Assembly: GCF_036971445.1 (NCBI RefSeq)
Contig: NC_091477.1
Span: 3,100,001 to 3,164,000, forward strand
Source of the DNA: Narcine bancroftii
Taxonomy: Eukaryota
Length of the DNA stretch: 64,000 nt
Direction: 5' to 3'
This document shows positions 5,535 through 60,662 of this stretch, one piece after another (within the stretch, counting starts at the first letter, position 1; each line of letters begins with the position of its first letter). A model generated the notes under the pieces. The model was not told where the DNA came from and did not search any database. It saw nothing but the letters and a program-made list of their open reading frames with translations. The position numbers were made by a program, and so were the translations under genes.

Positions 5535-6000
5535 CAACATCATACCCCCCCTCCCCTCCATCACACCCCCCCTCCCCTCCATCACACCCCCCCTCCCCTC
5601 CATCACACACCCCTCCCCTCCATCACACCCTCCTCCACTCCATCACACCCCCCTCCCTTCCATCACACCCCCCCTCCCCTCCATCACACCCCCCTCCCCT
5701 CCATCACACCCCCCTCCCCTCCATCACACCCCCCTCCCCTCCATCACACCCCCCTCCCCTCCATCACACCCTCCTCCCCTCCATCACACCCCCCTCCCTT
5801 CCATCACACCCCCCCTCCCCTCCATCACACCCCCCTCCCCTCCATCACATCCCCCCTCCCCTCCATCACACCCCCCTCCCCTCCATCACACCCCCCTCCC
5901 CTCCATCACACCCCCCTCCCCTCCATCACACCCCCTCCCCTCCATCACACCCCCCCTCCCCTCCATCACACCCCCCCTCCCCTCCATCACACCCCCCTCC
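5535..6000. repeat. C-rich minisatellite, unit about 19-20 bp (ccctcccctccatcacacc)
   Basis: More than 20 tandem copies are visible. It explains the Pro/His-rich ORF 5531-6073. Confidence 0.95.
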
Positions 6001-6554
6001 CCAGCCCGAGGTACCAGGACAGTTACCTCCCTGCTGTTATCAGACTCTTGAACAGACCATTAGTCAAAGCTGATGTGACAAACACGACCCCATTGCTGCC
6101 CTCCTGCTGTTTTTAAGAGAAAATTCTTTCCGGAACACCACAAAATGACATCTCAATGTGAGTTGTTTGGTAAAGCTGTTTCTCCACCTGCTGGTGGGGA
6201 CGTCCCCAGCAGAAAAACCTTCCTTTGGAAATGTTCAGCACCAATCACTCCAAGCCCAGTTATATCATAACTTTTATCAGTTCAATCACCTCGAGGCCCT
6301 GCGCGGTGGAAGTGGGTTCTGGACAAAACCCCCGTATGAAACACAGAAATCTGCAGATGTTCTGATTGTCTGCTGAGCTGCTCCAGTGTAACTGTGTCTT
6401 TTGGACAAGACCTGCTCTGTTCGCTAATTAACACCACGGCAGATACAAGTGAATATTTGTTATCTACCTATTTTTTGCATTTAGTGTCTCTTCTAATTCA
6501 ATTATGGATATGATTGTGGTTGCTTTTGTCTTGGTTTTACAAAGTTCAAGTGCA

Positions 6555-13608: not shown

Positions 13609-15502
13609 AAGCCCTCCATGAGGGCTCCGTGCATACAAGCCTTTCATTACGCCAAGGGACACTGGGACACAGGGGCTTTAAAGGAAAGTTTTAAAATTTA
13701 AAGTGTAGCTTCTTTCAATGTAACATGACCATCTTGTTATATGGTTATGATACCTTGGTGAAGGGCTCAAGCCTGAATTGTTGGTTCTGTAGCCTTATCT
13801 TTGCTCTATAAAGTTCCCTGTCTGACCTGATGAATTTCTCCAGCATCGTGTTTTTCATGAGGTCATGTTGCAGTTCTATAAAACTCTAGTTAGACCACAT
13901 TTGGAGTATTGTGTTCATTTCTGATCGCCTCATTACAGGAAGGACGTGGAAGCTGTGGAGAGGGTGCAGAGGAGATTCACCAGGATGTGGCCTGGGTTGG
14001 AGCACGTGTCTTATGAGCAAGTTTAGCAGAGCTGGAACATTTCTCTTTGGAGCAAAGAAGGATGAGAGAAGACTTGATAGCGGTCTCCAAGATAATGAGA
14101 GGCATCGATAGGGTGCAGTCCTTTACTTAGACCGTACCATGGAAACATTATATTTCCTCAAGTTATGTCAGGGTCAAGTTTCAGTTTTGTAAAACAAGCA
14201 TCAAAACTCGGGTAAAAACTCTGTGTTAGTTATAGAGCCAACATCTTTATCCCAGGTCAAGACTAGCAAACACCAAAGGAGATCTGCACAAGGTGTGAGG
14301 GGGACTGTTTAGGGGTAATTTTAGACAGGGTAGTGGGTGTCTGGAAAGCATTGCCAGGCCTGGTGGTGGAGGCTGCGAAAAAAGGGACATGGACACAAGA
14401 AAAATAGAGGGTTGTGGGAATGAGGGAGGGAAGGTTTAGATTGTTGAGTAAGTTCCCAGCACATCCTCATTACCCTGGCTCTCAGTCCCGACGAAAGGCT
14501 CTGGCCCACAGCGCTGACCATTCTTTCTTTCCCACTGACATTGCGCGATCCACTGAGTTCCCAGATCAGGCTGCACGTTGCCACAGGTTCCAGCACCCGC
14601 AGTCTCCCATGTTTCCCTCCATTCCCTAATGGTCCAAAGGCCACTATCATACCTGCTTCCACCACCACTCCTGGCAGCCCGTTCCACGCACCCACCACTC
14701 TGTGTAAAATATCTTGCCTTGTAAATCTCCTTTAAACTTTAAAAGGCTCATTCCACCCTGGCCACACTCCCTTTGCCCCCTCCCGTCAAGAAGTTTCATG
14801 AGTATGAGATCACACACTCCCAGATCCAAGGGCAGATTCTCTCCTACTGTTACCAGGCTCCTGAATGGACCCCATGCCTGTAAAGTGATGCTGCCTTTGC
14901 TCTGTTTTAACTGCTCTCTCTCTGTAACTCTCCATTTCTGAACGGTGTAGTACCTGCTGTACTGTGCTTGGGTTGGTGAGCTGGTCAGCTCGCTAAAGAA
15001 ACCTCTTCACCACAGTACATGTGTCAATGACGTTCAACTTGAACTCATAACTCATCATATAAGTTGAAGTGAGTTATCCTGTTCTTTGGCAAATGGAAAA
15101 CCAAGATAATTTTGTCATGTTTTATTTCACACGTCCATTTGGATCCCTTCTCTCCTCATAATGAAAACCACCTTGATCCTCAACAGTGCAGGTTACCAGC
15201 TCCCATGGGTCATACTGGTAGCAGTCTTTGAGCTTTCATTGTATCACATAACCCATCCCCTTTCCCCCACCATTGGTTGCACCTTGAGGCCATTGGTAGA
15301 AAAATACCCTCTGAACTTGTGATTGGTTGACACTTATGTCAACCTGCCATGATATCACCAGCCTTGGGAATCCTGAAGTTGAATAGAGGCCCGAATTACA
15401 CGTGAACATCATTGAGTCCTCAGGATCATGAACCCAAATCCTAGGCTGTCCAATCTGGAGCCTGCACACATGATGCAGATTTACACCTGGGTTGTGTCTC
15501 TC

Positions 15503-15698
15503 NNNNNNNNNNNNNNNNNNNNNNNNNNNNNNNNNNNNNNNNNNNNNNNNNNNNNNNNNNNNNNNNNNNNNNNNNNNNNNNNNNNNNNNNNNNNNNNNNN
15601 NNNNNNNNNNNNNNNNNNNNNNNNNNNNNNNNNNNNNNNNNNNNNNNNNNNNNNNNNNNNNNNNNNNNNNNNNNNNNNNNNNNNNNNNNNNNNNNNNN
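15503..15698. other. Assembly gap (N run)
   Basis: 196 Ns next to simple-repeat sequence. Confidence 1.
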
Positions 15699-15728
15699 TA
15701 AGCATACATGCACTCATGCACACATATA

Positions 15729-17562: not shown

Positions 17563-17790
17563 AGGCTGGTGAATGCAGCTGAAGTCTACTTTCACAATTA
17601 TCCAGGTGGTCACGAGTTGCTGTTCCCTTGACTTCAGTTCCATTGGGGTAGGAGCACCAGCAAAAGCCAGTGCTGGGCCAACATTGCTTGGGCTCAAAGT
17701 TCCCATCCGTATTACAAGAGGGATAGAAACTGCCAGGTTTTCTCTTCACCATTTTCCTCTTCCTCTCACACAGAGTCTCTGCCCTCTGAA
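17563..17790 (-). CDS. CD74: CD74 thyroglobulin type-1 domain exon (p41-type, 6b equivalent)
   Basis: [75 protein letters not shown] has six Cys and the QC..STG.CWC motif. Acceptor cgtgcag|, donor |gtaagt, 228 nt, phase 1-1. Confidence 0.92.
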
Positions 17791-22285: not shown

Positions 22286-25200
22286 TTTTTTTTAAATTTT
22301 TCAAACTATGAACCAAAATACACATAAACATTTCCCTCTTGAATATCTCCCCTTTTCCCCCATCCCTTCCCTCCCTCCTTCATTCCCCCCTCCCCACTCA
22401 CTCAATGTTCAACCTATATGATACATTAAACCCATTAAACAATGTCATCACAAAATGATAATAAACAAGAAATTTGTGACATCGACTTTTACACACTGGG
22501 TCAGTTCATTTCGTCTTCTCCTTCTGTCATTTTAGGCGGTGGAGGTCCACGGTTTGACTTCTCTGTTGTGTTCCATGTATGGTTTCCAAATTTGTTCGAA
22601 TACTGTGATGTTATTTCTTAAATTATATGTTATTTTTTCCAATGGAATACATTTATTCATATCTATGTACCATTGCTGTATTCTCAGGCTATCTTCTAAT
22701 TTCCAGGTTGACATAATACATTTTTTTGCTACAGCTAAGGCTATCATAATAAATCTTTTTTGTGCTTCATCCAAATCGAATCCAAGTTCTTTACATCTTG
22801 TATTACTTAGAAGAAAGATCTCTGGATTTTTTGGAATGTTGCTTTTTTGTGATTTTATTTAATACCTGATTTAGATCTTCCCAAAACTTTTCCACTTTCT
22901 CACATGCCCTAATTGCATGTACTGTTGTTCCCGTTTCCTTCTAACAGCGAAAACATCTGTCTGATATTGTTGGGTCCCATTTATTTAACTTTTGGGGTGT
23001 GATGTATAGCCTGTGTAACCAATTATATTGTATCATGCGTAACCTCGTGTTTATTGTATTTCTCATAGTTCTGGAGCATAGCTTTTCCCATGTTTCATTC
23101 TTTATCTTTATGTTTAGATCTTGTTCCCATTTTTGTTTGGGTTTACAACTTATTTCCTCGTTCTCTTTCAGTTTGATGTACATGTTGGTTATAAATCTTT
23201 TAATTATCATTGTGTCTGTAATCACATATTCAAAATTGCTTCCTTCTGGTAATCTCAGACTGCTTCCCAATTTGTCCTTTAAGTAAGTTTTCAGTTGATG
23301 GTATGCAAACATTGTACCATTAGTGATTCCATATTTGTACTTCATTTGTTCGAATGTTAATAAATTATTTCCCAAAAAGCAATTTTCTATTCTTTTGATC
23401 CCTTTTCTCTCCCATTCTCTAAAGGAAAGATTATCTATTGTGAAAGGGATTAGTTGATTTTGCGTCAATATTTATTTTGGTAGTTGATAATTTGTTTTTT
23501 TCTTTTCTACGTGAATCTTCTTCCAAATGTTGAGCAGATGGTGCAGTACTGGTGAATTCCTATGTTGCACCAGCTTTTCATCCCACTTGTATAGTATATG
23601 TTCAGGTATCTTCTCCCCTATTTTATCTAGCTCTAATCTGGTCCAATCTGGTTTTTCCTTCATTTGATAAAAATCTGATAGGTATCTTAATTGTGTTGCT
23701 CTATAATAATTCTTAAAGTTTGGTAGCTGTAAGCCTCCTTGTTTGTACCATTCTGTTAATTTATCTAGCACTATCCCCGGTTTCCCCCCTTTCCATAAGA
23801 ATTTCCTTATTATTTTCTTTAGCTCCTTGAAGAATTTCTCTGTTAGGTAAATTGGTAATGATTGAAATAGGTATTGTATCCTTGGGAAGATATTCATTTT
23901 AATGCAATTTACCCTTCCTATCAGTGTTAATGGTAAATCTTTCCAATGTTCTAAGTCGTCTTGTAATTTCTTCATTAATGGCTGATAATTTAATTTGTAT
24001 AGATGGCCTAGATTAGTATCTAGTTGAATACCTAGTAATTGGATTGCTTGTGTTTGCCATTTAAATGGTGATCCTTTCTTAAACTTTGTGAAATCCATAT
24101 TATTCATTGGCATCGCTTCACTTTTATTTGCATTGATTTTGTACCCCGATACTTCTCCATATTCCTTCAATTTTTTATGTAATTCTTTTATTGATAATTC
24201 TGGTTCTGTTAAGTATACTATGATGTCATCTGCAAATAGACTGATTTTATACTCCTTCTCTTTTATTTTTATCCCTCTTATTTAATTTTCTGTTCTTATC
24301 AGTTCTGCCAAGGGTTCTATAGCTAACACAAACAGTGAGGGAGATAGTGGACATCCCTGCCTAGTTGACCTGCTTAATTTAAATTAGTTTGATATATATC
24401 CATTTACTGTCACCTTCGCCAATGGTCCCTTATATAATGCTTTAATCCAATTAATATATTTCTCTGGTAGGTTGAACCTCTGTAGTATTTTGAATAGATA
24501 ATTCCATTCTACTCTGTCAAAGGCTTTCTCTGCGTCTAAGGCAACTGCCACTGTTGGTGCCTTGTTTCCTTGTACTTCATGGATTAAGTTAATGAACTTG
24601 CAGATATTGTCCGTTGTTCATCTTAATAAATTCAGTTTGGTCTAGTTTTACTATTTTTGGTACACAATCGGCCAATCTGTTTGCTAATAGTTTAGCTATT
24701 ATCTTATAATCTGTGTTGAGTAGAGATATTGGTCTATACGATGCTGGTGTTAGTGGATCTTTCCCCATCTTTAGTATTACTGTAATTATTGCTGTTTTGC
24801 ATGAATCTGGTATGTTTTGTGTTTCTTCAATCTGGTTCATTACTTCCAGGAGAGGAGGAATTAATAAGTCTTTAAATGTTTTATAGAATTCTATTGGGAG
24901 TCTGTCCTCTCTCAGCGTTTTATTGTTCGGTAGTTTTTTTAATATATCGTGTATTTCCTCTATTTCAAATGATTTTATTAATTTGTTTTTCTCCTCTTCT
25001 TGCAATTTCGGTAGTTCAATTTTAGCTAGAAACTCAACTATTTTGTCTTCTTTCCCTTCGTTCTCAGTTCGATATAGTTGCTCGTAGAATTCCTTGAAGT
25101 TTTCATTGATTTCTGTTGGGTTATATGTAATTTGTTTGTCCTTTTTCCTTGATGCCAATACCATTCTTTTAGCTTGTTTTAGCTTCTCTTAGCTTGTTAA

Positions 25201-27447
25201 GCTGCCAAGCTAATATTTTGTGCGTTTTTTCTCCTAGCTCATATTACTTCTGCTTTGTCTTCATTATGTTCTTCTCCACCTTGTATGTTTGTAGTGTTTC
25301 ATATTTTATTTTTTTGTCCACCAATTCTCTTCTTTTTGTTGTATCTTCTCTTATTGCTAATTCTTTTTCTCTACTTGCTATTTCCCTTTCCAACTGTTCT
25401 ATTTCCCGATTGTAGTCCTTCTTCATCTTAGTTACATAACTTATTATCTGCCCTCTGATGAAGGCTTTCATTGCATCCCATAGTATAAATTTATCTTTCA
25501 CTGATTCCGTATTTATTTCAAAGTACATTTTAATTTGGCGCTCAATGAATTCTCTAAAATCCTGTCTTTTAAGTAGCATGGAGTTTAATCTCCATCTTGA
25601 CATTCTTGGTGGGATGTCCTCTAGCTCTATTGCTAATAACAGGGGTGAGTGATCTGATAACAATTTAACTTTATATTCCGTTTTTCTAACTCTTCCTTGG
25701 ATGTGGGCTGACAACAGGAACAGGTCTATCCTTGAGTATGTTTCATGTCTACCCGAATAATAGGAGTATTCTTTCTCCTTTGGGTGTTGTCTCCTCCATA
25801 TATCCAAAAGTTGCATTTCCTGCATCGGTTTAACCATAAATTTGGTTACTTTGTTCTTTCTGCTAGTTTTATCTGCATCCAGTTTTATCCATCTTTGAGT
25901 ACAAATTAAGGTTGAAGTCCCCTCCTATCAATATATTCCTCTGTATATCTGCAATCTTCAAAAAGATATCTTGCATAAATTTTTGATCCTCTTCATTAGG
26001 TTAATGGGATAACTATTTTAAGCACCACTGGATATCTTAACATAAATTTATAGCCTTTCTTCCAAAGGATCGATTTTGCTGCATTAAACTCCTTCCTCTT
26101 CTTCAGGAGCTCAAAACTTATGACTGGGTAGACAAAAAACTTTTGACTTTTGTATTCCAGTGGTTTTTTGTCTTCTCTCATTTGTTTCATTGCCCTCTCC
26201 AATATATTTTCTCTTGTCGTGTATCTCAGGAATTTTACTAAAACAGATCTTGGTTTTTGTTGTGACTGTGGTTTCGGGGCTAATGTTCTGTGTGCCCTTT
26301 CTATTTCCATTCCTTCCTGCATTTCTGGCATTCCCAGGACGTTTGGGATCCATTCTTTTATAAATTCTTTCATATCTTTGCCTTCTTCATCTTCCTTAAG
26401 GCCCACTATCTTTATCTTGTTTCGCCTACTATAGTTTTCCATTATATCCATCTTCTGAGCTAACAACTCCTGTGTTTCTTTAACTTTTATCAGTTTCTTC
26501 CAATTTTCTTTTTAAGTCGTTCACTTCCATTTTTACGGCTGTTTCTCGTTCTTCCACATTTTCTAATCTTTTCCCTACATCTGCTATAACCAGCTCTAAT
26601 CTACACACTTTTTCTTCTTTTCATTTTTCCTTTCATTTCACTAAATTCTCGTGTCAGCCATTCTTTTAACGCTTCCATATATTCTTGAAATTTTTTTAAA
26701 TCTATGTACTGTCCATTCCCTTTATCTTCTATTTCTCGGTGCAGAGCTTGATGTTCTCCTTCTTCTTCTTCTGTGTCTGCTCTAGGGTTTGTGTCCTCTA
26801 CCTCTCTTCCTTGTATCTGTGTCTCTTCTGACTTTCTTGTTGGGCTGTTTATCTCAGTTTGCTGGGGTTTTTTTTAATGGTGTCTTGATGTTGGTCCTCT
26901 TCCTCTGGGCTGGTCATCTGCTGTTTCTCTTATTTCCTCTTTTCATTCTCACCCCTTCTGTTCCCGTTATTTTCTATATCTTCCTGCTGGGAGCCCTGCT
27001 CTCGGGTCTTTCTCAGCTGTTCGTGCTGTAGAGTTCCACTCCACAGCTGGTCCCCCCTCCCGTCGGTGTGGTCTTTGCCGTGTGCATAGCACATCCACAA
27101 TTCCTCATGCATGCGCGGTTGCGCACCTCTGTTTGGCTCCGTGAGCCATCTTTGCAGTCCTGCATTCAGTGGGTCGCGACCCTGCGGGGTCTCCACTGAC
27201 CTCGGGGAGTGGGCTCCTCTTTCCATGGCAGGTCCCTGCTTTTTCAAACAGGTAAGGCCTTCACCTTTCTCTTCCAGCGCCTTTCTTTCTTTTTTTCTTC
27301 CCGTTGTTTTTGGCTTTTCTTTCTTAGGTGCCATTTTCTCCACACCTTTATTTTTAATTTGTTGTGATTTGTGTGCCTGGGACTTTATTTTTTCCTCACT
27401 TTTTTCCTTTTCTGGAGAAGGCCACTACTCCATCATGTGACTCCTCC
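22286..27447 (-). mobile_element. Near full-length L1-clade LINE (ORF1 plus ORF2 EN-RT), disabled by frameshifts
   Basis: ORF1 25996-26466 (ENYSRRNKIKIVGL, IERAHR). Endonuclease end YSRIDLFL..LSDHSPL. RT motifs YRPISLLNTDYKIIAK and GYKINANKS. Poly(A) near 22290. Imperfect TSD agagcagcatttctt (22271-22285) / agagcagccattctt (27448-27462). Confidence 0.92.
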
Positions 27448-28610: not shown

Positions 28611-29077
28611 CAGGGTCTTGAACCTCACAGAACTACCTTAACACTCGCCATAAACTACTCCAGAACCACCCAAATGATCTGTCTTCACTTTTGAGGCGAT
28701 TATTTGGCACTAACTGAAGCTATGAATATTTATCTATTCATTGGAGCAATGCGCCATGTGCTGGAGAAACCCAGTGGGTCAGGCAGCATCCGCGGAGAGT
28801 CAGACAGCCGACGTTTTGGGCCACCATCCTCTCTGCGTTTTGTGGGATCTTGCTGTGCAGTGGCTGGCCTCTGTCAAGGGACAGAACCTTGAGAGGAATT
28901 CCCTGTGGGGATTTTTCTTCAGTTTCTGACAGAACCCCTGTCCCTCCCTCTCCCTGGAGATCAATCATTTCCAGTGGGTCTCTGCCCTCAGGGGAGGGGT
29001 TGGCCATCAATGGGAGGGATTGTTGAGGGGAGTGTTGGAGTGGTCGGAAGAGCATGGTCAATCACTAGAGTGCATAC

Positions 29078-29192
29078 CACTGGGCTTGGGGTCACGCCAG
29101 GGTTGGACGTGGGGTGCACTGGTTGGAGCTTCTTCCTTCTTGTTTTGAACCAGTTGGAACAGAAGCCAATTCTGAAGCCAAGACTCAAAGTC
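29078..29192 (-). CDS. CD74: CD74 exon 6 (end of trimerisation domain)
   Basis: DFESWLQNWLLFQLVQNKKEEAPTSAPHVQPWRDPKPS matches human VFESWMHHWLLFEM. Acceptor ttttgcag|, donor G|gtatgc, 115 nt, phase 0-1. Not shown in this frame by the ORF track. Confidence 0.95.
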
Positions 29193-30187
29193 CTGCAAAA
29201 CACACAAAGCACAAAGCATAAGACATGTTAAAATTTTATATTTTTAAAAATTTAGACATACAGCATTGCCTGTGCCACCCAAATTACACCCAATTACCCT
29301 ACAACCTCTGGAATGTTTTGAAGTGTGGGAGGAAACCAGAGCCCCCAGGAGAAACGCACACAAACACGAGGAGAACGTGCCAACTCCTTACAGACAGCAC
29401 CAGATTCGAACCCTGGTTCTGATTGCTGAGGCTGTAACCGCTACGCCAACCATGCCACCTCATATGAGAATATTGAGATCATTCAACCTGTCAAGTCTTC
29501 TTCACCATTCAAATCATGGCTGATGTATTTTCCCTCTCAATACCATTATCCCCATAACCTTCAACACCCTTATTAAGCCATTTTAACCTAACCAATGACA
29601 TGGCCTCCACAGCTGCCAGCGTTCACCGGTTCTCAGTGTAAATACACAAACCCACAGTCAGACAGAACACACATATGCAAGTATACAAATAAACAAACAA
29701 ATCAATAATTTTTTTTGTGAATATGAGAATCTCGGAGGGTCAGTGTGAGCAGTTCCTTTGATCGTTCACCATTCTCACTGCCGGTGGGAAGAAGCTCTTC
29801 CTCAGCCTGGTGGTGCTGGCTCTGATCCTCCTGGATCTCTTCCCTGATGGGAGCAACTGAAAGATGCCATGTGCAGGGGGAAGGGGTCCTCAATGATTTT
29901 GCACGCCCTCTTCAGACAGCGATCCTGGTCGATCACATTGATGGGGAGGAGGGAGACTCCAGTGATCCTCTCCTCCACTCTTATGGTCCTGTGAATTGAC
30001 CTCCAATCCATTTCTCTGCAGTAACCGTACACAGACTGTAATGCAGTAGGCCAGGACACTCCTGATGGAGCCCCTATAGAAGGTTGACATGATGGCCGGT
30101 AGACTTACCTTTTTAAGTCTTTTCAGGAAGTGCAGTCACTGACAAGTGAGGAGCTGTTGAGTGTCCATGATAGGTCACTAGTTAAAT

Positions 30188-30847
30188 CAGGACTTCTCAA
30201 ACATTTTAGCTGATGAAACCCTTTTGTGGAGCACTTGGAAATCACGGAGCCCAATCATTCATCACAGTTTAAACGGCCTGGTATATACACAAGCACAGTA
30301 AGAAAGTAACTAAACTCACCAATAGCCTCCCCTGAACTTGCCTGTCCATGGGCCTGAACTACCCCCGCCACACCTCACTCCTGCCACGGGTCCAGGCTGC
30401 CCCCGCCACAGGCCCAGGCTGACCCAGCCACACCTCACCCCCGCCACAGGCCAGGCTGCCCCCGCCGCACCTCTCTCACAGCCGTGGCCCGGGCTGCCCC
30501 CGACACACCTCACTCCCGCCACAGGCCCAGGCTGCACCCGCCACACCTCACCCCCACACAGCCCAGGCTGCCACAGCCGCACCTCGCTCACAGCTGTGGC
30601 CTGGGCTGCCACTGCCACGTCAGACACTGCTGGCCGCATACCCCACCTGTTGTGACAAGCTGGACACTGGTATTTTGGAACCCCCTCCTTGCACACGGGG
30701 CAAATCTTCATGCTGCCACTGCTAGCTCCCAGAAAGCACCGCACACGTCATCCCGGCAACAGCACAGCGCCGACTCTGGCCCACAGTCACCGGCTTTGCC
30801 CATGCAGATCATCATTGCTTCCACAGAACCCAGTTTAGGAAATGTTG
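30188..30847. mobile_element. Non-autonomous hAT-type element carrying captured host sequence (Pack-type)
   Basis: Imperfect terminal inverted repeats caggacttctcaaac / gtttaggaaatgttg. 8-bp TSD agttaaat (30180-30187) / agttaagt (30848-30855). It cleanly interrupts the LINE reading frame. Confidence 0.75.
30647..30711 (-). pseudogene. Captured first-exon fragment of a zinc-finger HIT gene (ZNHIT3-like)
   Basis: MKICPVCKEGVPKYQCPACHNR followed by |gtgggg; compare human ZNHIT3 CVICLEKPKYRCPAC. CpG-containing upstream sequence with TGACGT. Only the first four zinc ligands are present. Confidence 0.7.
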
Positions 30848-32262
30848 AGTTAAGTGAACTCCAAGGAACTTGGTGCTCTCCACTCTCCCCACTACAGAGT
30901 GGTTGATGTGTAGTGGAGGGTGGTCATTCCTGGTCCTTATGAAGTTTACGATCATTTCCTTCATCTTGTCCATGTTGAGATTCAGGTTGTTCCTCTCACA
31001 CCAACTCATGAGATTTTCCTCCTTTTCTCTGTAGTGCGACTCATTGTTGTTGCTGTTGTATTATCTGCAAACGGTGACACTGATGAAGCTGGATCAGGTG
31101 ATGCAGTCGTGGATCAGTAGCGTGAACAGGAGTGGACTGACCACACAGCCCTAAGGTACACCAGTGCGTGATATTCTGTTACTGACCCAAATAGACAGTG
31201 GTCGTCTTTCTGTTAGAAAATCCAAGATTCATTTAGAGAGAGGAGTGTTGAGTCCCAATGAGGTCAACTTCTCCACTAACCTCTGGGGAATGATCATATT
31301 AAACACTGAGCTGAAGTCAATGAAGAGCAGTCTGGCATACGAGGCGTCATTCTCCAGATGGGCCAGGACGGAGTGAAGTGACAGCATCGTCTGTGGAACA
31401 GTTTCTACTATAGGCAAATTGAACTGAATTCAGCATCTCTGGGAAGTGTGCTTTAATACGTTCCATCACCAGACCTCAAAGCATTTCATAATGGTGGAGG
31501 TCAGTGCCAGAGGGCAGTAGTCATTGAGGCTTGTGGTCATCACCCTCTTGGGTATTGGGATAATGATGGCTCTCTTGAACCCTACGTGAATGATGGACTG
31601 CTGCAGTGAGGTGTTGAAGATGTCCGAGGAGATCTCCATCAATTGGTCTGTTCAATCCTTTAGTACCTGACCAGGTCTGTTGTCTGGTCCCACCACCTCG
31701 TGTGGGTTCTCCTCACCTCGGTCGTGGTTATGTAGGAGGCCAGTTGATCAGGGGAACATGAAGCTTTCTTTATCATCATCCTGTTCTTCTCATCAAAAGT
31801 GCAGAGAAGGGAGGTGTTGTTTTCTTAAATTCGCAAGGTTGACGTGATCTGTAATAGTCTTCATCCCTTGGCACATGAACCTTGAGTCACTGGTGTTGCA
31901 CAGCTGACTTCTGTGGATCTTCAGCGCTTACCCTTGCTTTGCCTTCCCGACAGCACAGTGGAGTTCAGCCCTGGCTCATCTTAGTGCCATCCTATCCCCT
32001 GTCCTGAAGGCAGCATCATGAGCTGAGAAGGGCCCGGACCTCTGCATCCAACTATGGTTTCCGGTTAGCCCTGGTTGTGAAGTATTTGATCTTGGTGACA
32101 TCCTCGATGCACTTGCTGATGTAGCCAGTCACTGAGCTCATGTAGGTGTAGATGGCCACCTCCCGGAAACACCTCCAGTCCATGGTCTCAAAGCAGTCTT
32201 GCAGTAGCCTCCCCCCCACCTCACCCCACCTGCCACGTTCAGGGGAGGGCATTGGTCTAAGG

Positions 32263-32405
32263 CAGTGAATCTCAACCTTTATTTTCCACTCACATACCAC
32301 CTTGTTACTAACCACTGAGCATCTATACCACAGGTAATCCGTGGTTAGTAAGGAACTACTTAAGGTGGAATGAGAGTAGAAACAAAGAAAGATTGAGAAC
32401 CACTG
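32263..32405. mobile_element. hAT-type MITE
   Basis: TIRs cagtgaatctcaacc / gattgagaaccactg; TSD gtctaagg / atctaagg. Related to 60397-60662. Confidence 0.8.
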
Positions 32406-33495
32406 ATCTAAGGTGTGAGGGGAAAGATTCAAAGGGGGACCTGAGGGGCAACATTTTCAAACAAGGTGGAGATCTTCAGAGATTGATCGGTATATGAACA
32501 GTCAGGGAATAAAAGGTTATGGGGAGAAGGCAGGGGAGTGGAGCTGTTGGAGCATGGATCAGCTCGTGATGGAATAATGGAGTGGACAAAGGGCCAAATG
32601 GCCTACTTCTGCCCCTATAACAGTCTGATAACAGCAGGAGCCGGGAACAAAACTGTCCTTGAATCTGGAGATACGTGATCTCACACTCACGAAACAGCCA
32701 CGGAAGGAGGAGCAAGAGGGCGGGTGGGATGAGTCTTTTAATATGTCAACGGGCTTTCCAAGGCAGGGGATAAGAAAGGGGTGTTTGTGGAGGAAGGGGT
32801 GTGATGGAGGGGATGGTGGGGAGGGGGTGTGTGATGGAGGGGAGGGGGTGCACCATGGCCTAAGCCACATTCACCATCCTCTGCAGTTTCCTGTGGCCTT
32901 GGACAGAACAGTTCCCGACCCATGCAGTGACACAACCTGGCAGGATGCTCTCAGCGGGGCACCTGTGGCAGCACGGTTAGCACAGCACCAATGCAGCACC
33001 AGTGAATGGGACCGGCGTCGGAATCCCGTGCTTTCTGTAAGGAGTTTGTATGTTTTCCCAGTTTCTGCGTGGATTTTCCCCGTAGGCTACGGTTTCCTCC
33101 CACCATTCCAAACATACCAGAGTTATAGATCAATTGGGTGGCATGGGCTTGTGAGCTGAAAGGGCCTGTATGTCTAAATTAAAAATTTAAATGTAATATT
33201 TGATTATCTGGGGGATGAGACGCCAGGGGAATGGAGGCGGGACAATTAAAAGGCATTTGGGCAGAGGTAGAAAGGTGCGGCAAACACAGGCAAATGGGAC
33301 TAGCACAGGAGAGCACCTTGGTTAGTGTGGTTGAGCTTTCATGCTATAGGAGAACACTGAGCAGTGCTAGCAGTGTGGAAGAAGGGCCAAATGGCCTGTT
33401 GTGTACTGGTCATGACTGGATGTCAATAAAATCTCTTCAGCTGATAGGGAGGAACTTCTCTGCCCAGGGAGAGTGTTTGTTCAACCAGCACTCAC

Positions 33496-33591
33496 CTCCC
33501 AGTCAGATACGTTCAACGACTGTTTCACCAGCTTCAGGTTGTTGGAGAGGCTGTCACCCATCTCCGGAATCTCCTCGCTTTTGTTCCCTTC
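33496..33591 (-). CDS. CD74: CD74 exon 5 (trimerisation domain)
   Basis: EGNKSEEIPEMGDSLSNNLKLVKQSLNVSDWE, 96 nt, phase 0-0, ctgcag| and |gtgagt. Aligns with human ...[20 protein letters not shown]. Contains sequons NKS and NVS. Confidence 0.92.
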
Positions 33592-35729: not shown

Positions 35730-36350
35730 ACACACACCCCCCTCCCCTCCATTGACTCCATCACATACCCCCTCCCCTCCATTGTCTCCATCACATACAC
35801 CCTATCCCTCCAACTCCATCACACACCACCCTCCACTCCATCAACTCCATCCACACCCCTTCCTCTCCATCAACTCCATCCACACCCCTTCCTCTCCATC
35901 AACTCCATCACACACCCCCTCCCCTTCATCGACTCCATCACACACCCCCTCCCCTCCAACTCCATCACACAACCCCTCCCCTCCATCGACACCATCACAC
36001 ACCCCCTCCCATCCATCGACTCCATCACACACCCCCTCCCCTCCAATGACACCATCACACACCCCCTCCCCTCCATCGACTCCATCACACACCCCCTCCC
36101 ATCCATCGACTCCATCACACACCCCCTCCCCTCCAATGACACCATCACACACCCCCTCCCCTCCATCGACTCCATCACACACCCCCTCCCCTCCAACAAC
36201 ATCACACAGCCCCTCCCCTCCATTGACACCATCACACAACCCCCCTCCCCTCCATCGACCATCACACACCCCCTCCCCTCCCCTCCATCGACTCCATCAC
36301 ACACCCCCTCCCCTCCCTTCCATCGACTCCATCACACACCCCCTCCCCCC
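35730..36350. repeat. 30-bp C-rich minisatellite (ccctcccctccatcgactccatcacacacc)
   Basis: About 20 tandem units; explains ORFs 35571-36410. Confidence 0.95.
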
Positions 36351-36890
36351 ATCTCTGCTTGTGGAATGAACCCATCTCTGTCGTCGATATGGACACAACA
36401 AGAAACTTGAATTTGATACACTTCAGTCAGTTAACACATCACAGTACAGGCCTTTCAGCCCACGATGTTGTGCTGACCTGTGTAAACCTACTTCACAACA
36501 ATCTTTTAAATGTCCCTTTTGTACCAGCTTCCACCACCACCCCCAGCAATGCATTCCAGGCCCCTTCCACTCTCTGTGTAAAAAAAACAAACTATCCCCG
36601 ACAACTCCCCTAAACTTTGCTCCCCTCACCTTAAACAGATTTCCTCTGGTACATGCTACACTTGCCCTGGATTAAAGGTGCTGGCTGCCCATCCTGTATA
36701 AGCCCCCTCTCATCCTCCATCAGTCCAAAGAGAAAAGCTCCAGCTCTGTCAACCTTGCCTCATAAGACACGTTCTCCAATCCAAGCAACTGATAAAAGAG
36801 TTATTTCTCTGCAGCTTGAGGGCAAAAGGCCAGGAGTCGTGTGTCCACCTCACTCACTCTGACCATCATTACAAGCCCCTTCATGGTTAC

Positions 36891-36967: not shown

Positions 36968-37862
36968 CTGAAGGAGTAAGATGCAAAAGGAATTATTTTC
37001 CACAAAGCAAGGGGAGAAAAGAAGTTTGCAGGGTAACTGCGAATTCACCGATACATTGGCTAATCCCAGGCCCCGGCTGGCAAGGGGATTGTTATGAGTG
37101 CAGAGCGTGGGACGGGAGCTGCACTGGGTTGGGAGAAGCTGCAGACACACAAACTTCTGTTCCCTCCGCGGACCATGTCTACATCTCCTGCTGCCCGGGA
37201 AAGGCAGCTGACCCACGAAGGACCCGTCGCCCACACCCCCCCTCCACGGACAAGCTCTCTTCTCCCTCCTCCCATCGGGGAGAAGGCTCAAGAGGATAAA
37301 ATTGTGCTCCAATAGGCTTAGTTTCTTCCACGCAGCTATCAGGTTCCTGAATGAGTTCCACAACAGTGCTCTCACCTGCCCGTGCTTGTCTTTTCCATTG
37401 TAATCCCACACCCTGTAAATTGTGCTCATTATACAGCTGTATGAATGCTCGAGCTAGCCTGTTAGCCTGCTCATAGAAGAAACCTTCTCACTGTACAAAG
37501 TAATAATGTGGCCAACTAACCAACCACTGGCACAGTGACCTGGGGAAAGCCTTTGCTCACTGCCTGTCAAAACCTTTTATAATTTGAATTCCTTCACTGA
37601 ATCTCTCTGGATCCAGATAGAATACTCAACATGCTCCGAACATTCCAAGCCAGAATCACTGGGAGCCTTGCTTCATCAGAATTGGGAGTCTTTTTGGTTT
37701 CAGAAGTATGTTTCATTTTCGTTTTGATTAGATTAGGCCAGGGTTGCTTATTCCACTTCTGGTTAACGTCCAGATGTTCCATTTCAAAAATCCCCGCACC
37801 CCTGGCCTGCTGTTCCCTAGCCGTGAAGCTAAATGTTATGGAGAGGCAAAAGGTGTGCTTAC

Positions 37863-38041
37863 TGACTGGGCCCCTGTGGGCAGAGTACTTGCTCTCAATG
37901 CGCTTCGTTGTCTTCTGGAGGTTCGTAATCTTGTCCTGTTGTTTCAGGAGGAACATGATGCTGGCCACTTGGCCAGCGATCAGCATCGCCACCAGGATGG
38001 ACACGCCCGTGTAGAGGAGGCCTCGAGCCCAGCTGCGGCTC
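37863..38041 (-). CDS. CD74: CD74 exon 2 (transmembrane segment)
   Basis: SRSWARGLLYTGVSILVAMLIAGQVASIMFLLKQQDKITNLQKTTKRIESK; human has [30 protein letters not shown]. Acceptor tctttcag|, donor |gtaagc, 179 nt, phase 2-1. Confidence 0.96.
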
Positions 38042-40322
38042 CTGAAAGACACAGCTCACTGGTAAGGAAGAGGGACACTCTGACATTCCCCAAACAGGAG
38101 CGTCTCCCAACCTGCAGTCTGCGAACCATTGATCATCCAAGGGTTTGCATGGAAGATCCTCGACGATAAGCAAAGATGTGTAATTACTGATGTAATAAAT
38201 AGCAAAATAGAACATAAATGAGAAAGTCTGTAGTCGCTGGGGAAGAGTGCAACACACAAACGTGCTGGAGAAAAGGATGAGGGGGGACCTCGTGGAGACA
38301 CTTCCAATGCTGAAAGGCCTGGACAGAGTCGATGTGACAAAGTTGTTTCCTGCGGTCGGGGAGTCTAGGACAAGGGGGCACAATCTCAAGATAAAAGGGC
38401 ATCAAATGAAAGCAGAAATTTCTTTCATCAGAGGGTCGTGAGTCTGTGGAACTTGTTGGGTGTACATTACGCAGAGATTGACAAGTATTTGACAAGTCAG
38501 AGCATCAAGGGTTACGGGGGAGAAGGCTGGGGAGTGGGGCTCAGTGATAATATCAGCTCATGATGGGCCGATTGACCTACTTCTGTTCTTGTGATCTTGT
38601 GAATTCAGCAGATCACACTACAATGTTCCCTCTTGTCTTTAGTCATCAGTTTGACCAAAAATCTTACGTTATGCAAATTGTTGTCCTGTGACAAAGGTCT
38701 GTGCGGACTGAACACTTGTGTACATGGAAAGCTCTCTCATGGCTAATAAAACTGTACTGGCATGTTTTGTTTAACCGACTAACTAGTTAACAGAAACAGT
38801 TAGCTAAGAGATGATTTTCAATAAGTATTACGAATTACTACATTATTTTAGGTCACTAATAATCAGTGCACATTGATTTCCTTTGTGCGCTGGTGGCAAA
38901 ACATGTGGGTGCGCCACACACGCTCACAGGGGTCACACAGCATCCACCGCCTCCCCGTCTCTCTCTTTCCCTCCAGCTCCCCTTCTCCTTCCCTTTCTTC
39001 TTCTATCACACTGCCACCCTCTCCAGCCAGAGAAGAATAACGGGCCTGGGAACTTCATCAGGTGTGAGAAAAAGCAATCGGGCACCTAAATATAAAAGGT
39101 GGGGGGGAGGGGGAGGAGGGAGGATGGGGAAAGAGGAGGAGACAGGCTAAAAGGTAAGTGGTCTTAAGTGTAGTGGACCGTAGAGAACATCTGGCTGGTT
39201 GCATCACTGCCTGGTATGGAGGTGCCAACTCCAGGACATGAACAAACTCCAGAGGGTTGTTAACTCGGCCTGCGACATCACGGGCACCAGACGTCACTCC
39301 ATCAAGGACATCGACATGAGGCGGTGTCTTAAAAATGCAGCCTCTATCCTCAAAGACCCCCCCCCCCCCACCTAGGCCACGCCCTCTTCACTCTGCTACC
39401 CTCGGGGAAAAGGTACAGGAGCCGAAAGACGAACACTGAACTGCACAAGGACAGCTTCTTCCCCTCTGCCATCAGATTCCTGAATGATCAATGAACCACA
39501 AACACGGCCTGACTGACTTTTTCTTGCACTGTTATTTTTTAAATTTATTGTTCTAAGGTGGTTTATGTGAATATTTGAAGTGTGAAGCTGACGCAAAACA
39601 ACGAATTTCATGACATGTCCTTGATAATAAATCCTGATTCTGAAAGAAGCTGAGAAGTGATTGGGGGACAGGTCTTCTCTCTGATAGAAGGAAGGGAGTG
39701 GGTGGAAAGCTGGAGGAAGGGAGACGGAGGGTTGAAAGGACAAGAGAGACACGGGGTGGGGGGGAGATTAGGCTCAATTTTAACATTTAATAAAAAATTG
39801 GACAGGTACATGCATGAGAGAGATATGGAGGGATAGACCAGGTGCAGGTCAATTGGACTGGGCAGAATAATAGTTTAACACAGACTAGAAGGGACGAAGG
39901 GCCTGTTTTTGTGCCATAGTGTTCTATGATTCTATGCGGTTAACTGAAATTGTTAATGTCATCTGGTTGTCGAACTCCATTTTGTGGAGGAACTCAGCAG
40001 GTCAAACAACATCTGTGGGTGGGAAGGGTCAGTCAACATTTCAAATTGGGACCCAGTATTGAGACTGAGAATGTTTGGGTAGCAGGGTGAATGGACAAAG
40101 GGAGCATACAAATCATGTGGGGTAAAACAGGAACTACACTGTTATCTTGCCCAGAATTTCATGTCCTTCTGACATCCGTAGAACCAACCCTGCTATAATC
40201 AGAGCAGCTCAGCTGTCTGAAACCAAAGCCCATTCCCCCTCCAGGGAGGGAAGCATCTCAGGAGACTATGAGAGGTGTTGGTGTGTGACTAGCCGAGGTT
40301 CAGGAGCACACAGAGGGCTTTA

Positions 40323-54720: not shown

Positions 54721-54949
54721 TAGGAGCAGTGCAGCATAAGATGTAGGACTGAGCTTTAGTTCCTTGCTTAAATTCTATGGCAGAGATTGGGGCAGCTCTT
54801 TGGAAGGTCAGTATCCCATCTCAGCTGCCCCCTTAAACCAGATCATTTTTCCTTTCTGGTGTATTTGGTCCATGCTGCCCATCCATACTAATCCCCCTCC
54901 TGCTCCAACAAAAGCAAACTCAGCCTATTCTCACCTCATAACTAAGACC

Positions 54950-56175
54950 CCCCCCAGGCAGCATCCGGTCCAGTACCATAATCCACCCCCAGGCAGCATC
55001 TGATCCAGTACCATGACCCCCCCCCCCCCCCCAGGCAGCATCCTGTCCGGTACCATTACCCCCCCAGACAGCATCCTGTCCAGTACCATGACTCCCCCAG
55101 GCAGTAAGTATCCTGTCCAGTACCATGACCCCCTCAGGCAGTATCCTGTCCAATACCATGACCCCCCCAGGCAGTATCCTGTTCAGTACCATGACCCCCC
55201 CAGGCAGTATCCTGTCCAGTACCATGACCCCCCCCCCCCAGGCAGCATCCTGTCCAGTACCATGACCCCCCCCAGGCAGCATCCTGTCCAGTACCATGAC
55301 CCCCCCCCCCCAGACAGCATCCAGTCCAGTACCATGACCACCCACCCCCCCAGGCAGCATCCAGTCCAGTACCATGACCACCCACCCCCCCAGGCAGCAT
55401 CCTGTCCAGTACCATGACCCCCCCCCCAGGCAGCATCCAGTCCAGTACCATGACCACCCACCCCCCCCAGGCAGCATCCTGTCCAGTACCATGACCACCC
55501 CCCCCAGGCAGCATCCAGCCCAGTACCATGACCACCCACCCCCCCCCAGGCAGCATCCTGTCCAGTACCATGACCACCCCCCCCAGGCAGTATCCTGTCC
55601 AATACCATGACCCCCCCAGGCAGTATCCTGTTCAGTACCATGACCCCCCCCCCCCCCAGGCAGCATCCTGTCCAGTACCATGACCCCCCCCAGGCAGCAT
55701 CCTGTCCAGTACCATGACCCCCCCCCCCCAGACAGCATCCAGTCCAGTACCATGACCACCCACCCCCCCAGGCAGCATCCAGTCCAGTACCATGACCACC
55801 CACCCCCCCAGGCAGCATCCTGTCCAGTACCATGACCCCCCCCCCCAGGCAGCATCCAGTCCAGTACCATGACCACCCACCCCCCCCAGGCAGCATCCAG
55901 TCCAGTACCATGACCACCCCCCCCAGGCAGCATCCAGCCCAGTACCATGACCACCCACCCCCCCCCAGGCAGCATCCTGTCCAGTACCATGACCACCCCC
56001 CCCAGGCAGCATCCGGTCCAGTACCATGACCCCACCCCCAGGCAGCATCCTGTCCAGAACCATGACCCCCCCCCCAGGCAGCATCCTGTCCAGTACCATG
56101 ACCCCCCCCCCAGGCAGCATCCTGTCCAATACCATGACCACCCCCCCCCCCAGGCAGCATCCGGTCCAGTACCAT
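54950..56175. repeat. Minisatellite, unit about 30-37 bp (ccaggcagcatcctgtccagtaccatgac plus C-run)
   Basis: More than 30 tandem units; explains the 433-aa and 330-aa low-complexity ORFs. Confidence 0.96.
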
Positions 56176-60396: not shown

Positions 60397-60662
60397 CAGT
60401 GGCTTCCAACTTTTTTCTTTCCACTCACATACCACTTTAAGTATTCCCTAGGCCATCAATGCTCTGTGAGTGGGAAGGGAAGGTTGAGAATCACTGCTCA
60501 AGACCCAATTGTTACTGAAATATTTTGCTTGAGAAAAATTGTCAGTGGCCCATTTCCTTTGGAGTTCTGAAACCGTGCACATAACGAGTCAATGAGGGAC
60601 GATTACAACAGTGGTTACTTAAAGTGGTATGTGAGTGGAAAGAAAAAGGTTGAGAACCACTG
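60397..60662. mobile_element. hAT-type MITE in the last RPS14 intron
   Basis: Ends cagtggcttccaac / ggttgagaaccactg with a long subterminal inverted repeat (tttccactcacataccac). No clear TSD. Confidence 0.7.

What the first reader, a model, noticed from the sequence alone, without database searches (positions are those of the whole stretch)
30180..30855. Pack-type hAT transposon carrying a ZNHIT3-like promoter and first exon inside CD74 intron 5
Seen: a 660-bp insert with hAT-like TIRs and an 8-bp TSD (7/8 match) splits a LINE frame exactly (GVHLT|SDLSW). The cargo is a CpG-containing upstream region with TGACGT, an ATG-initiated CxxC..PKYxCPAC half zinc finger, a GT donor and a GC-rich intron-like repeat. 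Keeping promoter-like and intron-like sequence points to DNA-level capture rather than retrotransposition. The cargo has the same orientation as CD74, so it could act as an internal promoter. Splicing its phase-2 donor to exon 6 would be out of the CD74 frame but stays open through that exon. Inference: gene capture by a TIR element, well known in plants and much less documented in vertebrates.
Basis: partly seen in the sequence, partly recalled or inferred. Interest (0 to 1): 0.75.

Follow-up and report, generated by a model that had tools for sequence, protein, structure and literature searches.

The report
Amplified transposon carrying ZNHIT3's first exon
A 660-base cut-and-paste transposon in intron 5 of the immune gene CD74 carries the start of the housekeeping gene ZNHIT3, a piece that recurs at dozens of places in this genome and was likely spread by the transposon, while this copy has a likely later GC-rich insert inside the exon and no shown effect on CD74.

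Summary
The element is real: 30188-30847, 8-bp TA-centred duplication (7/8), degenerate 15-bp TIRs (10/15). Contigs of other copies of the host LINE skip exactly 668 bases there. The cargo matches ZNHIT3 from Met1 without gaps. Two corrections. (1) It is not a one-off: the right end plus exon and the left end are each covered by about 25-38 distinct contigs in one DNA run (81 nearer the left TIR), so the cargo is repeated, most likely as a ~340-bp hAT family. (2) The GC-rich repeat is probably not ZNHIT3 intron 1. It is low-copy, 321 nt, in frame, and the ZNHIT3 reading resumes after it with Tyr23-Cys24 and a GTGAGT donor at 30319 (one such site in 128,001 positions). So it is likely a second insert inside exon 1. 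Vertebrate Pack-TIRs are published (370, 208 hAT), but only 4 of 281 are multicopy, with 3-5 copies in the cases described; bat Helitrons amplified a promoter-exon-1 piece the same way. The parent locus, whole sister copies, promoter activity and CD74 chimeras are untested. Interest 0.45.

The parts
30188..30847 (-). Non-autonomous hAT (Buster-type target) element, 660 bp in this copy; about 339 bp without the GC-rich insert
   Evidence: empty-site joint 30179->30848 skipping 668 in 43/11/18/12 contigs of four runs; lengths
30180..30187 (+). Left target-site duplication AGTTAAAT (one change from the right copy)
   Evidence: loose ends show the LINE target reads like the right copy
30848..30855 (+). 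Right target-site duplication AGTTAAGT, TA at positions 4-5
30188..30202 (+). Left TIR CAGGACTTCTCAAAC
   Evidence: 10/15 to right TIR
30833..30847 (-). Right TIR CAACATTTCCTAAAC
30822..30831 (+). Subterminal motif CACAGAACCC, echoed at 30243-30252 (CACGGAGCCC) near the other end; possible transposase-binding motif (inferred)
30712..30800 (-). Sequence upstream of the ATG with TGACGT at 30750-30745; likely ZNHIT3 proximal promoter/5' UTR (inferred); border with the hAT end not resolved; multicopy
   Evidence: 25-34 X1 contigs at 30723, 30736, 30797, 30798
30646..30711 (-). ZNHIT3 exon 1 coding part A, codons 1-22 (half zf-HIT finger); multicopy
   Evidence: 38 X1 contigs at 30698
30325..30645 (-). 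321-nt GC-rich (72%) segment with 5.6 copies of a 38-bp unit; in frame, no stop; low-copy; likely second insert inside exon 1 (edges +/-2 nt)
   Evidence: (X1 depth 9.7-27.8 versus 508-1320 on both sides)
30314..30324 (-). ZNHIT3 exon 1 part B (Tyr23 and two bases of Cys24) and donor TG|GTGAGT, GT at 30319-30318
   Evidence: Tyr 113/114 and Cys 114/114 at these positions in ZNHIT3 relatives; in frame with ATG 30711; only TAYTG|GTRAG in 128,001 positions
30203..30313 (-). AT-rich stretch behind the donor (likely start of ZNHIT3 intron 1) merging into the left hAT end; border not resolved; multicopy
   Evidence: 33-37 X1 contigs at 30274-30296, 81 at 30227
29720..30179 (-). Host LINE, 3' part (reverse-transcriptase frame resumes SDLSW)
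30856..31100 (-). Host LINE, upstream part (ends ...KFLGVHL); continues further up
   Evidence: (RVT_1 E 0.09, weak)
29193..33495 (-). CD74 intron 5 (between the exon ending ...SDWE at 33496 and the exon starting DFESW at 29192)

Best explanation
This 660-bp hAT-type insertion carries the 5' coding start of ZNHIT3, a piece repeated at dozens of loci, and is likely one decayed copy of a ~340-bp Pack-TIR family that captured the gene's promoter end, exon 1 and splice donor as DNA and was likely spread by a transposase supplied in trans. Steps: (1) inferred: template switching during repair or replication of a short hAT element copied about 200 bp of the ZNHIT3 5' end between its ends; (2) shown as repetition, inferred as transposition: the loaded element was copied to tens of loci; (3) shown: one copy inserted into a LINE in CD74 intron 5 with an 8-bp nnnTAnnn duplication; (4) inferred: a later break at codon 22 was filled with 321 nt of GC-rich repeat, the transposition-independent gap filling described for single-copy Pack-TIRs; (5) inferred: the copy then decayed (TSD 7/8, TIRs 10/15, several letters off the family majority) and is most likely a passive passenger in the intron.
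For: Boundaries and TSD from empty-site joints in all 4 of 4 runs laid. ZNHIT3 identity: gapless 12/23 from Met1 to Met1 with a teleost ZNHIT3, E 4e-8 pairwise; 112 of 114 ZNHIT3-family sequences with the finger have Met three residues before the first Cys, as the cargo does; mean 13.1/23 and best 15/23 identity versus 8-11/23 for 4 BCD1-like proteins. Repetition: 38, 32, 25 and 32-34 distinct X1 contigs at 30698, 30723, 30736 and 30797-8, and 33-37 at 30274-30296; X5, another study, shows 8, 5, 4, 4 and 4-7. Counts are similar from 50 bp inside the right TIR through the exon and again behind the donor, as expected if the cargo moves with both ends. Second insert: X1 depth drops from ~500 to 10-28 between about 30653 and 30326; an RNA?-run contig of another copy aligns to 30326 (64.8x4/67 = 3.87, the bin value); Tyr23-Cys24 and GTGAGT follow in frame; the profile score of codons 1-23 rises from 32.4 to 40.2 bits when the 321 nt are skipped. 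Buster-type TSD consensus nnnTAnnn: PMC3517528. Mechanisms: PMC8277862.
Against: No sister copy was seen whole: the contigs are short, and no displayed piece joins TIR, cargo and a different flank, so the family's structure and distinct TSDs are inferred. The parent locus was not seen and no cartilaginous-fish ZNHIT3 was among the 120 proteins listed of 242 hits. The tool states that contig depth is no copy number; only contig counts are used. Both candidate donors score 7/9 on a simple consensus. A fungal HIT1-like gene has its intron in the Tyr codon, one codon before the donor proposed here. TIRs match only 10/15. Left-end depth (1180-1320) is over twice that of the cargo (508-586), so part of the left-end signal belongs to relatives without cargo or to collapsed young copies.
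Confidence: 0.7

Rival explanations
1. One reading: the GC-rich repeat is the real ZNHIT3 intron 1 (donor at 30647), this copy is the long founder form, and the other copies are internal-deletion derivatives.
For: CAG|GTGGGG at 30647 scores 7/9 and lies where the upper multicopy zone ends; X1 depth over the repeat (10-28) is 2-5 times this locus's own contig (4.9), which leaves room for the parent; Arg22 is nearly invariant in teleosts (110/114), which could reflect an AG| donor. Missing deletion joints prove nothing: the known empty-site joint carries only 0.6% of LINE depth.
Against: It leaves unexplained that Tyr-Cys plus GTGAGT sits exactly in frame at the lower edge of the repeat, the only such site in 128,001 positions, and at the edge of the multicopy zone.
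Confidence: 0.12
2. The repeated zinc-finger piece comes from ZNHIT3 retrocopies or a segmental repeat, and only this locus is a single-copy Pack-TIR made by gap filling into a resident MITE.
For: Most animal Pack-TIRs are single-copy (277 of 281 in PMC8277862); processed copies would also stop matching near the exon end; no whole sister copy seen.
Against: The repeated zone runs to within 50 bp of the TIR (32-34 contigs at 30797-8) and includes sequence behind the GTGAGT donor (33 contigs at 30296), which a spliced copy would lack.
Confidence: 0.1
3. The zinc finger belongs to the transposon itself: the element is an internal deletion of an autonomous hAT whose transposase gene starts with this exon.
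For: TIR, short upstream region, ATG exon pointing inward and multicopy status are also what the 5' end of a transposase gene looks like (inference).
Against: zf-HIT is the best Pfam family; no BED-type family among the 23 listed; Met1-anchored match to ZNHIT3; two searches among 71-2000-aa proteins returned no transposase (no candidate; 9 hits of 61 candidates, all zf-HIT proteins), both weak negatives. A captured ZNHIT3 exon later used by an autonomous element is not excluded.
Confidence: 0.06

Closest known systems
Pack-TIRs of animals, multicopy class, e.g. Pack-hAT-N8_XT carrying 291 bp of the CAPSL 5' UTR in Xenopus tropicalis (Tan et al. 2021, PMC8277862)
   Same: Non-autonomous hAT ends around a short host fragment from a gene's 5' end; repeated copies; size near the 224-bp median; insertion into a host gene.
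   Different: Published multicopy cases are 4 of 281, with three copies in the figured case and five in another; here at least 25-38 contig variants cover the cargo. The cargo has ATG, coding exon and donor. This copy holds a likely second, nested filler. Their one cartilaginous fish (elephant shark) had 0 Pack-TIRs from 242 annotated DNA elements. Parent locus not shown here.
HelibatN3 of vespertilionid bats (Thomas et al. 2014, PMC4224331)
   Same: Promoter, 5' UTR, first exon and part of the first intron of a housekeeping gene (NUBPL) amplified by a DNA transposon; such 5'-end captures reached the highest copy numbers there.
   Different: A rolling-circle Helitron with about a thousand copies; here a cut-and-paste hAT with TIRs and an 8-bp TSD and tens of copies.
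hAT-captured histone H3 in Pseudocercospora and relatives (Dhillon et al. 2019, PMC6710886; abstract only)
   Same: A hAT captured a housekeeping gene and amplified it, copies inactivated.
   Different: Fungal, hundreds of copies, coding sequence in a complete hAT, RIP-inactivated.
Buster-family hAT MITEs such as Mar of Drosophila willistoni (PMC3517528)
   Same: Short non-autonomous element, TIRs beginning CAG on one end, 8-bp nnnTAnnn TSD.
   Different: Mar carries no described host exon; no transposase is available here to place the element on a tree.

Membership tests
hAT superfamily (non-autonomous) | 8-bp target-site duplication | tested here: met
   668-base skip with 8 letters fitting either side in X1; 7/8 match
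hAT superfamily (non-autonomous) | Short TIRs (5-27 bp, PMC3517528) | tested here: inconclusive
   15-bp ends match 10/15 and lie exactly at the junctions; degenerate, not significant alone
hAT superfamily (non-autonomous) | Ends shared with an autonomous hAT transposase element | not testable with these tools
   no genome held
Buster family of hAT | TSD consensus nnnTAnnn | tested here: met
   AGTTAAGT has TA at positions 4-5; a single site, 1/16 by chance
Pack-TIR (Tan et al. 2021) | Internal non-TE sequence of 100-5000 bp between two ends of one TIR element | tested here: met
   ZNHIT3-like exon with upstream and downstream sequence between the TIRs
Pack-TIR (Tan et al. 2021) | Unique parental locus at 90% or more identity, free of flanking TIR elements | not testable with these tools
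   no genome; no source for cargo or insert within the 64-kb window
Pack-TIR (Tan et al. 2021) | Not a retroduplicate (intron or donor kept) | tested here: met
   donor GTGAGT and the sequence behind it are inside the element and multicopy
Multicopy Pack-TIR | Several copies with the same chimeric structure and distinct TSDs | tested here: inconclusive
   25-38 contig variants over the cargo, but no whole sister copy or its TSD displayed
ZNHIT3 gene 5' end | Initiator Met three residues before CxxC-x8-CxxC, followed by R-Y-C | tested here: met
   112/114 Met position, Tyr 113/114, Cys 114/114 in relatives; in this copy Tyr-Cys follows only after the 321-nt insert
ZNHIT3 gene 5' end | Colinearity with this species' ZNHIT3 promoter and intron 1 | not testable with these tools
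   no genome; no cartilaginous-fish protein among the 120 listed
TE-derived internal promoter of CD74 | Transcription start in the element and a splice junction to exon 6 | tested here: inconclusive
   only RNA contigs of other samples could be laid; they cannot show starts or absence

The most novel reading that the evidence does not exclude
A vertebrate cut-and-paste family that spread a ready-made promoter + ATG exon + splice-donor cassette from ZNHIT3 to tens or hundreds of loci, some of which fire inside host genes (CD74 among them) to make chimeric transcripts, and in which the captured housekeeping promoter helped the family amplify, as suggested for bat Helitrons; this copy adds a second in-frame capture that lengthens the exon to a 130-codon zinc-finger fusion frame.
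Probability: 0.12. Interest if true: 0.75.

Novelty: new variant of a known kind. Interest (0 to 1): 0.45.

Why it matters
Host-gene capture by TIR transposons is documented in vertebrates but is nearly always single-copy. A hAT family that moved a housekeeping gene's start, ATG and splice donor to dozens of loci would be the cut-and-paste counterpart of the bat Helitron/NUBPL case and, if the host is a cartilaginous fish (my recalled impression of the repeats and CD74 sequence, tested by no call), it would come from a lineage with no Pack-TIR in the published survey. Many copies of one captured promoter give a natural series for testing whether such cassettes stay active and whether 5'-end cargo favours amplification. 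The nested second filler would show both proposed routes (capture plus transposition, then gap filling in place) in one element. For CD74 itself nothing functional is shown.

Tried and rejected
Whole-genome search: no genome held. Protein searches with the cargo alone: no candidate, 0 hits at E 0.001 among 1.84 billion representatives (30-aa query too short), PDB best E 0.07 and the ZNHIT3 chain only E 1.9 among 12 listed, Atlas unnamed clusters only and nothing for the CD74 exon: none informative. Metagenome motif scan: 114 loci, 12 with the CxxC upstream of the motif, none from this element; used only to seed the ZNHIT3 search. No RNA holder listed for the element. In the two RNA? runs laid (X6, X7; one study, other samples; 2 of 3 offered), 30457-30590 had no cover, no contig carried this copy's letter at 30698, 30723, 30736 or 30797, and no joint to 29192 was among the 15 joints shown (1047 not shown, 10% share filter), while CD74 exon 6 was deep: blanks, not evidence of silence. 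Absence of a family-wide deletion joint was rejected as evidence (0.6% recovery of the known joint). A 23-nt match between 30318-30340 and 32234-32256 (E 0.16) was treated as chance. Rfam: one match at E 0.37, far below its gathering score. TIR consensus scan of the window: 43 matches versus 47 expected, so the motif alone is not evidence. The open frame through the insert (163 of 2000 shuffles open; one in three for length) was not taken as selection. Earlier findings of the scan: four look-ups, nothing. Literature: 10 searches listed no paper on a ZNHIT3-carrying transposon; repeat databases such as Repbase or Dfam could not be searched, so the family may already be catalogued there.

Full report
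Observation. The insert spans 30188-30847. It is flanked by AGTTAAAT and AGTTAAGT (7/8) and begins and ends with 15-mers that are 10/15 complementary. The TIRs alone would not convince: the repeat finder did not list them and a consensus scan gave 43 matches against 47 expected. The boundaries are fixed by paralogues of the host LINE. When contigs of four public runs were laid on 29050-31050 at 80% likeness, a joint from 30179 to 30848, skipping 668 = 660 + 8 bases, appeared in 43, 11, 18 and 12 contigs, with 8 letters fitting either side in X1. The target has TA at positions 4-5, the Buster-type consensus given in PMC3517528 (passages read). The LINE frame reads KFLGVHL on one side and SDLSW on the other. 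X1 may be the sample the window was built from; the paralogue evidence does not depend on that, and X5 comes from another study.

Host gene. Pfam places the CD74 transmembrane/CLIP-side exon near 37852-38052 (E 8e-16), the trimerisation exon starting at 29192 (E 7e-7) and the thyroglobulin exon near 17600-17722 (E 2e-14). The exon before ends at 33496. By exon order the element lies in intron 5, in CD74's orientation; exon 1 was not located. That the host is a shark or ray is my recalled impression and comes from no call.

Cargo identity. From ATG 30711 the minus strand reads MKICPVCKEGVPKYQCPACHNR. zf-HIT is the best of 23 Pfam families (E 3.6e-5; 23.8 bits, cut-off 24.7). Direct searches were too short to work, so I seeded an alignment with two zf-HIT stretches from metagenome loci, which returned teleost and tunicate ZNHIT3, and then 242 relatives, 120 listed. 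The cargo aligns Met1 to Met1 without gaps to a teleost ZNHIT3 (12/23). Of 120 ZNHIT3-family proteins held, 114 had the finger pattern (6 dropped), and 112 of these have Met three residues before the first Cys. Identity over 23 positions averages 13.1 (best 15), against 8-11 for four BCD1-like proteins. A profile of these N-termini scores the cargo 36.0 bits; the next frame in the window scores 7.3 and the best of 30 shuffles 12.2. ZNHIT3 is therefore well supported, though no protein from a cartilaginous fish was among those listed and the parent locus was not seen.

First new result: the cargo is repeated. In X1 the single-copy CD74 exon has depth 7-10.5 and this locus's own 596-nt contig 4.9. 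The bins over the exon and upstream region have 508 and 586, and those over the left end 1180 and 1320. The tool warns that contig depth is no copy number, so I count contigs: 38 distinct contigs carry a different letter from this copy at 30698, 32 at 30723, 25 at 30736, 32-34 at 30797-30798, 33-37 at 30274-30296 and 81 at 30227. X5 shows the same pattern at lower counts (8, 5, 4, 4, 4-7, 16). The counts stay level from 50 bp inside the right TIR through the exon, and again behind the donor. The simplest reading is a family of at least a few dozen loaded elements; that they are whole TIR-flanked copies with their own TSDs is inferred, since no displayed piece shows one. At these positions nearly all other contigs share one letter and this copy differs, so it is a decayed member.

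Second new result: the GC-rich repeat is probably not the intron. Between about 30653 and 30326 depth falls to 10-28 in X1: the excess in bin 30591-30657 equals about 4-5 bases of the family's depth, and a contig of another copy in X7 reaches 30326 (64.8 x 4/67 = 3.87, the bin's value). Just below that edge the minus strand reads TAT TG|GTGAGT (30324-30314). TAT is codon 130 of the frame that starts at 30711, so the 321 nt between codon 22 and it are a whole number of codons. ZNHIT3 relatives have Tyr at 23 (113/114) and Cys at 24 (114/114). TAYTG|GTRAG occurs once in 128,001 positions of the window. Skipping the 321 nt raises the profile score of codons 1-23 from 32.4 to 40.2 bits. So exon 1 most likely runs to 30320, its donor is at 30319, the AT-rich stretch behind it is the start of intron 1, and the repeat is a later insert. 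Without it the element is 339 bp. Against this: both donors score 7/9 on a crude consensus; a fungal HIT1-like gene has its intron one codon earlier, in the Tyr codon; and depth over the repeat leaves room for one to four further loci, one of which could be the parent. The insert has no source in the window. It keeps the frame open, as 163 of 2000 shuffles do, which I do not read as selection.

Mechanism. Shown: insertion with an 8-bp duplication; ZNHIT3-like exon with ATG and donor; repetition of both arms; low copy of the middle. Inferred: capture by template switching, amplification by a transposase in trans, later gap filling at this locus, then decay. These follow the two routes in Tan et al. 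(PMC8277862: I read the abstract, introduction, three of four parts of Results, the Pack-TIR methods section and the Discussion, and ran two term searches of its 12 supplementary files held). Either donor is phase 2, so a join to exon 6 is out of the CD74 frame and open through it; it would not make a CD74 isoform. The upstream part has CpG o/e 0.47, consistent with decay. Expression could not be tested with the runs on offer.

Comparison with what is known. Tan et al. found 370 Pack-TIRs in 100 animal genomes, 208 of them hAT; 4 of 281 unique cases were multicopy, the figured frog case with three copies of a CAPSL 5' UTR piece and another with five; elephant shark had none, and ZNHIT occurs nowhere in the supplements searched. 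Thomas et al. (PMC4224331, passages only) report a bat Helitron that amplified the NUBPL promoter, 5' UTR, first exon and part of intron 1 to about a thousand copies, and that 5'-end captures amplify most. Dhillon et al. (PMC6710886, abstract only) report a fungal hAT amplifying histone H3. PMC6887750 was opened at abstract and outline only and not used. It works like a multicopy Pack-TIR; membership is met for ends, TSD and intron retention, and open for the parent locus and sister TSDs. Ten literature searches listed no report of a ZNHIT3-bearing transposon; subscription papers and repeat databases were out of reach.

Verdict. Real, correctly bounded, and a likely amplified Pack-hAT with a nested second filler (confidence 0.7). 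The kind is known; the copy number and the promoter-exon-donor cargo make it a variant worth a genome-wide look. No function at CD74 is shown. Interest 0.45.

Noticed in passing
window 32263-32405: A 143-bp palindromic hAT-like MITE with TIRs CAGTGAATCTCAACC / CAGTGGTTCTCAATC and an 8-bp duplication GTCTAAGG / ATCTAAGG (TA at positions 4-5), in the same CD74 intron and LINE region.
   Followed up: partly
window 60397-60496 and 60609-60662: Relatives of the 143-bp MITE (78-88% over 30-56 bp), one internally shortened and one truncated, close together.
   Followed up: no
run X5, contig over window 30372-30567: A contig from organism B is identical to the GC-rich insert over 196 nt, and its last 66 nt do not continue along this locus; at four sites outside the insert no X5 contig has this copy's letter. 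Either an orthologous allele with another repeat number or the source of the filler.
   Followed up: no
runs X6 and X7, contig over about window 30215-30326: One contig of another copy of the left arm, including the GTGAGT donor, is the deepest at that place in both RNA? runs (166 and 65); a sister copy may sit in an expressed transcript.
   Followed up: no
window 22941-27424, minus strand: A long L1/Tx1-like element in fragments (ORF1-like, endonuclease and reverse-transcriptase frames), AT-rich, between CD74 exon 6 and the thyroglobulin-domain exon; family label from recall.
   Followed up: no
window 17600-17722, minus strand: CD74 thyroglobulin type-1 exon, about 11 kb downstream of exon 6.
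   Followed up: partly
L002 1465-1620 (and L011): A fungal-looking HIT1/ZNHIT3-like gene with an intron in the Tyr codon of the finger, one codon before the donor proposed for the cargo.
   Followed up: partly
window 5538-6002, 35731-36353, 54948-56175: C-rich tandem arrays (periods 20, 30 and 40), the first two with related units; they give long low-complexity open frames. The window also has a 196-base N gap near 15500-15700.
   Followed up: no
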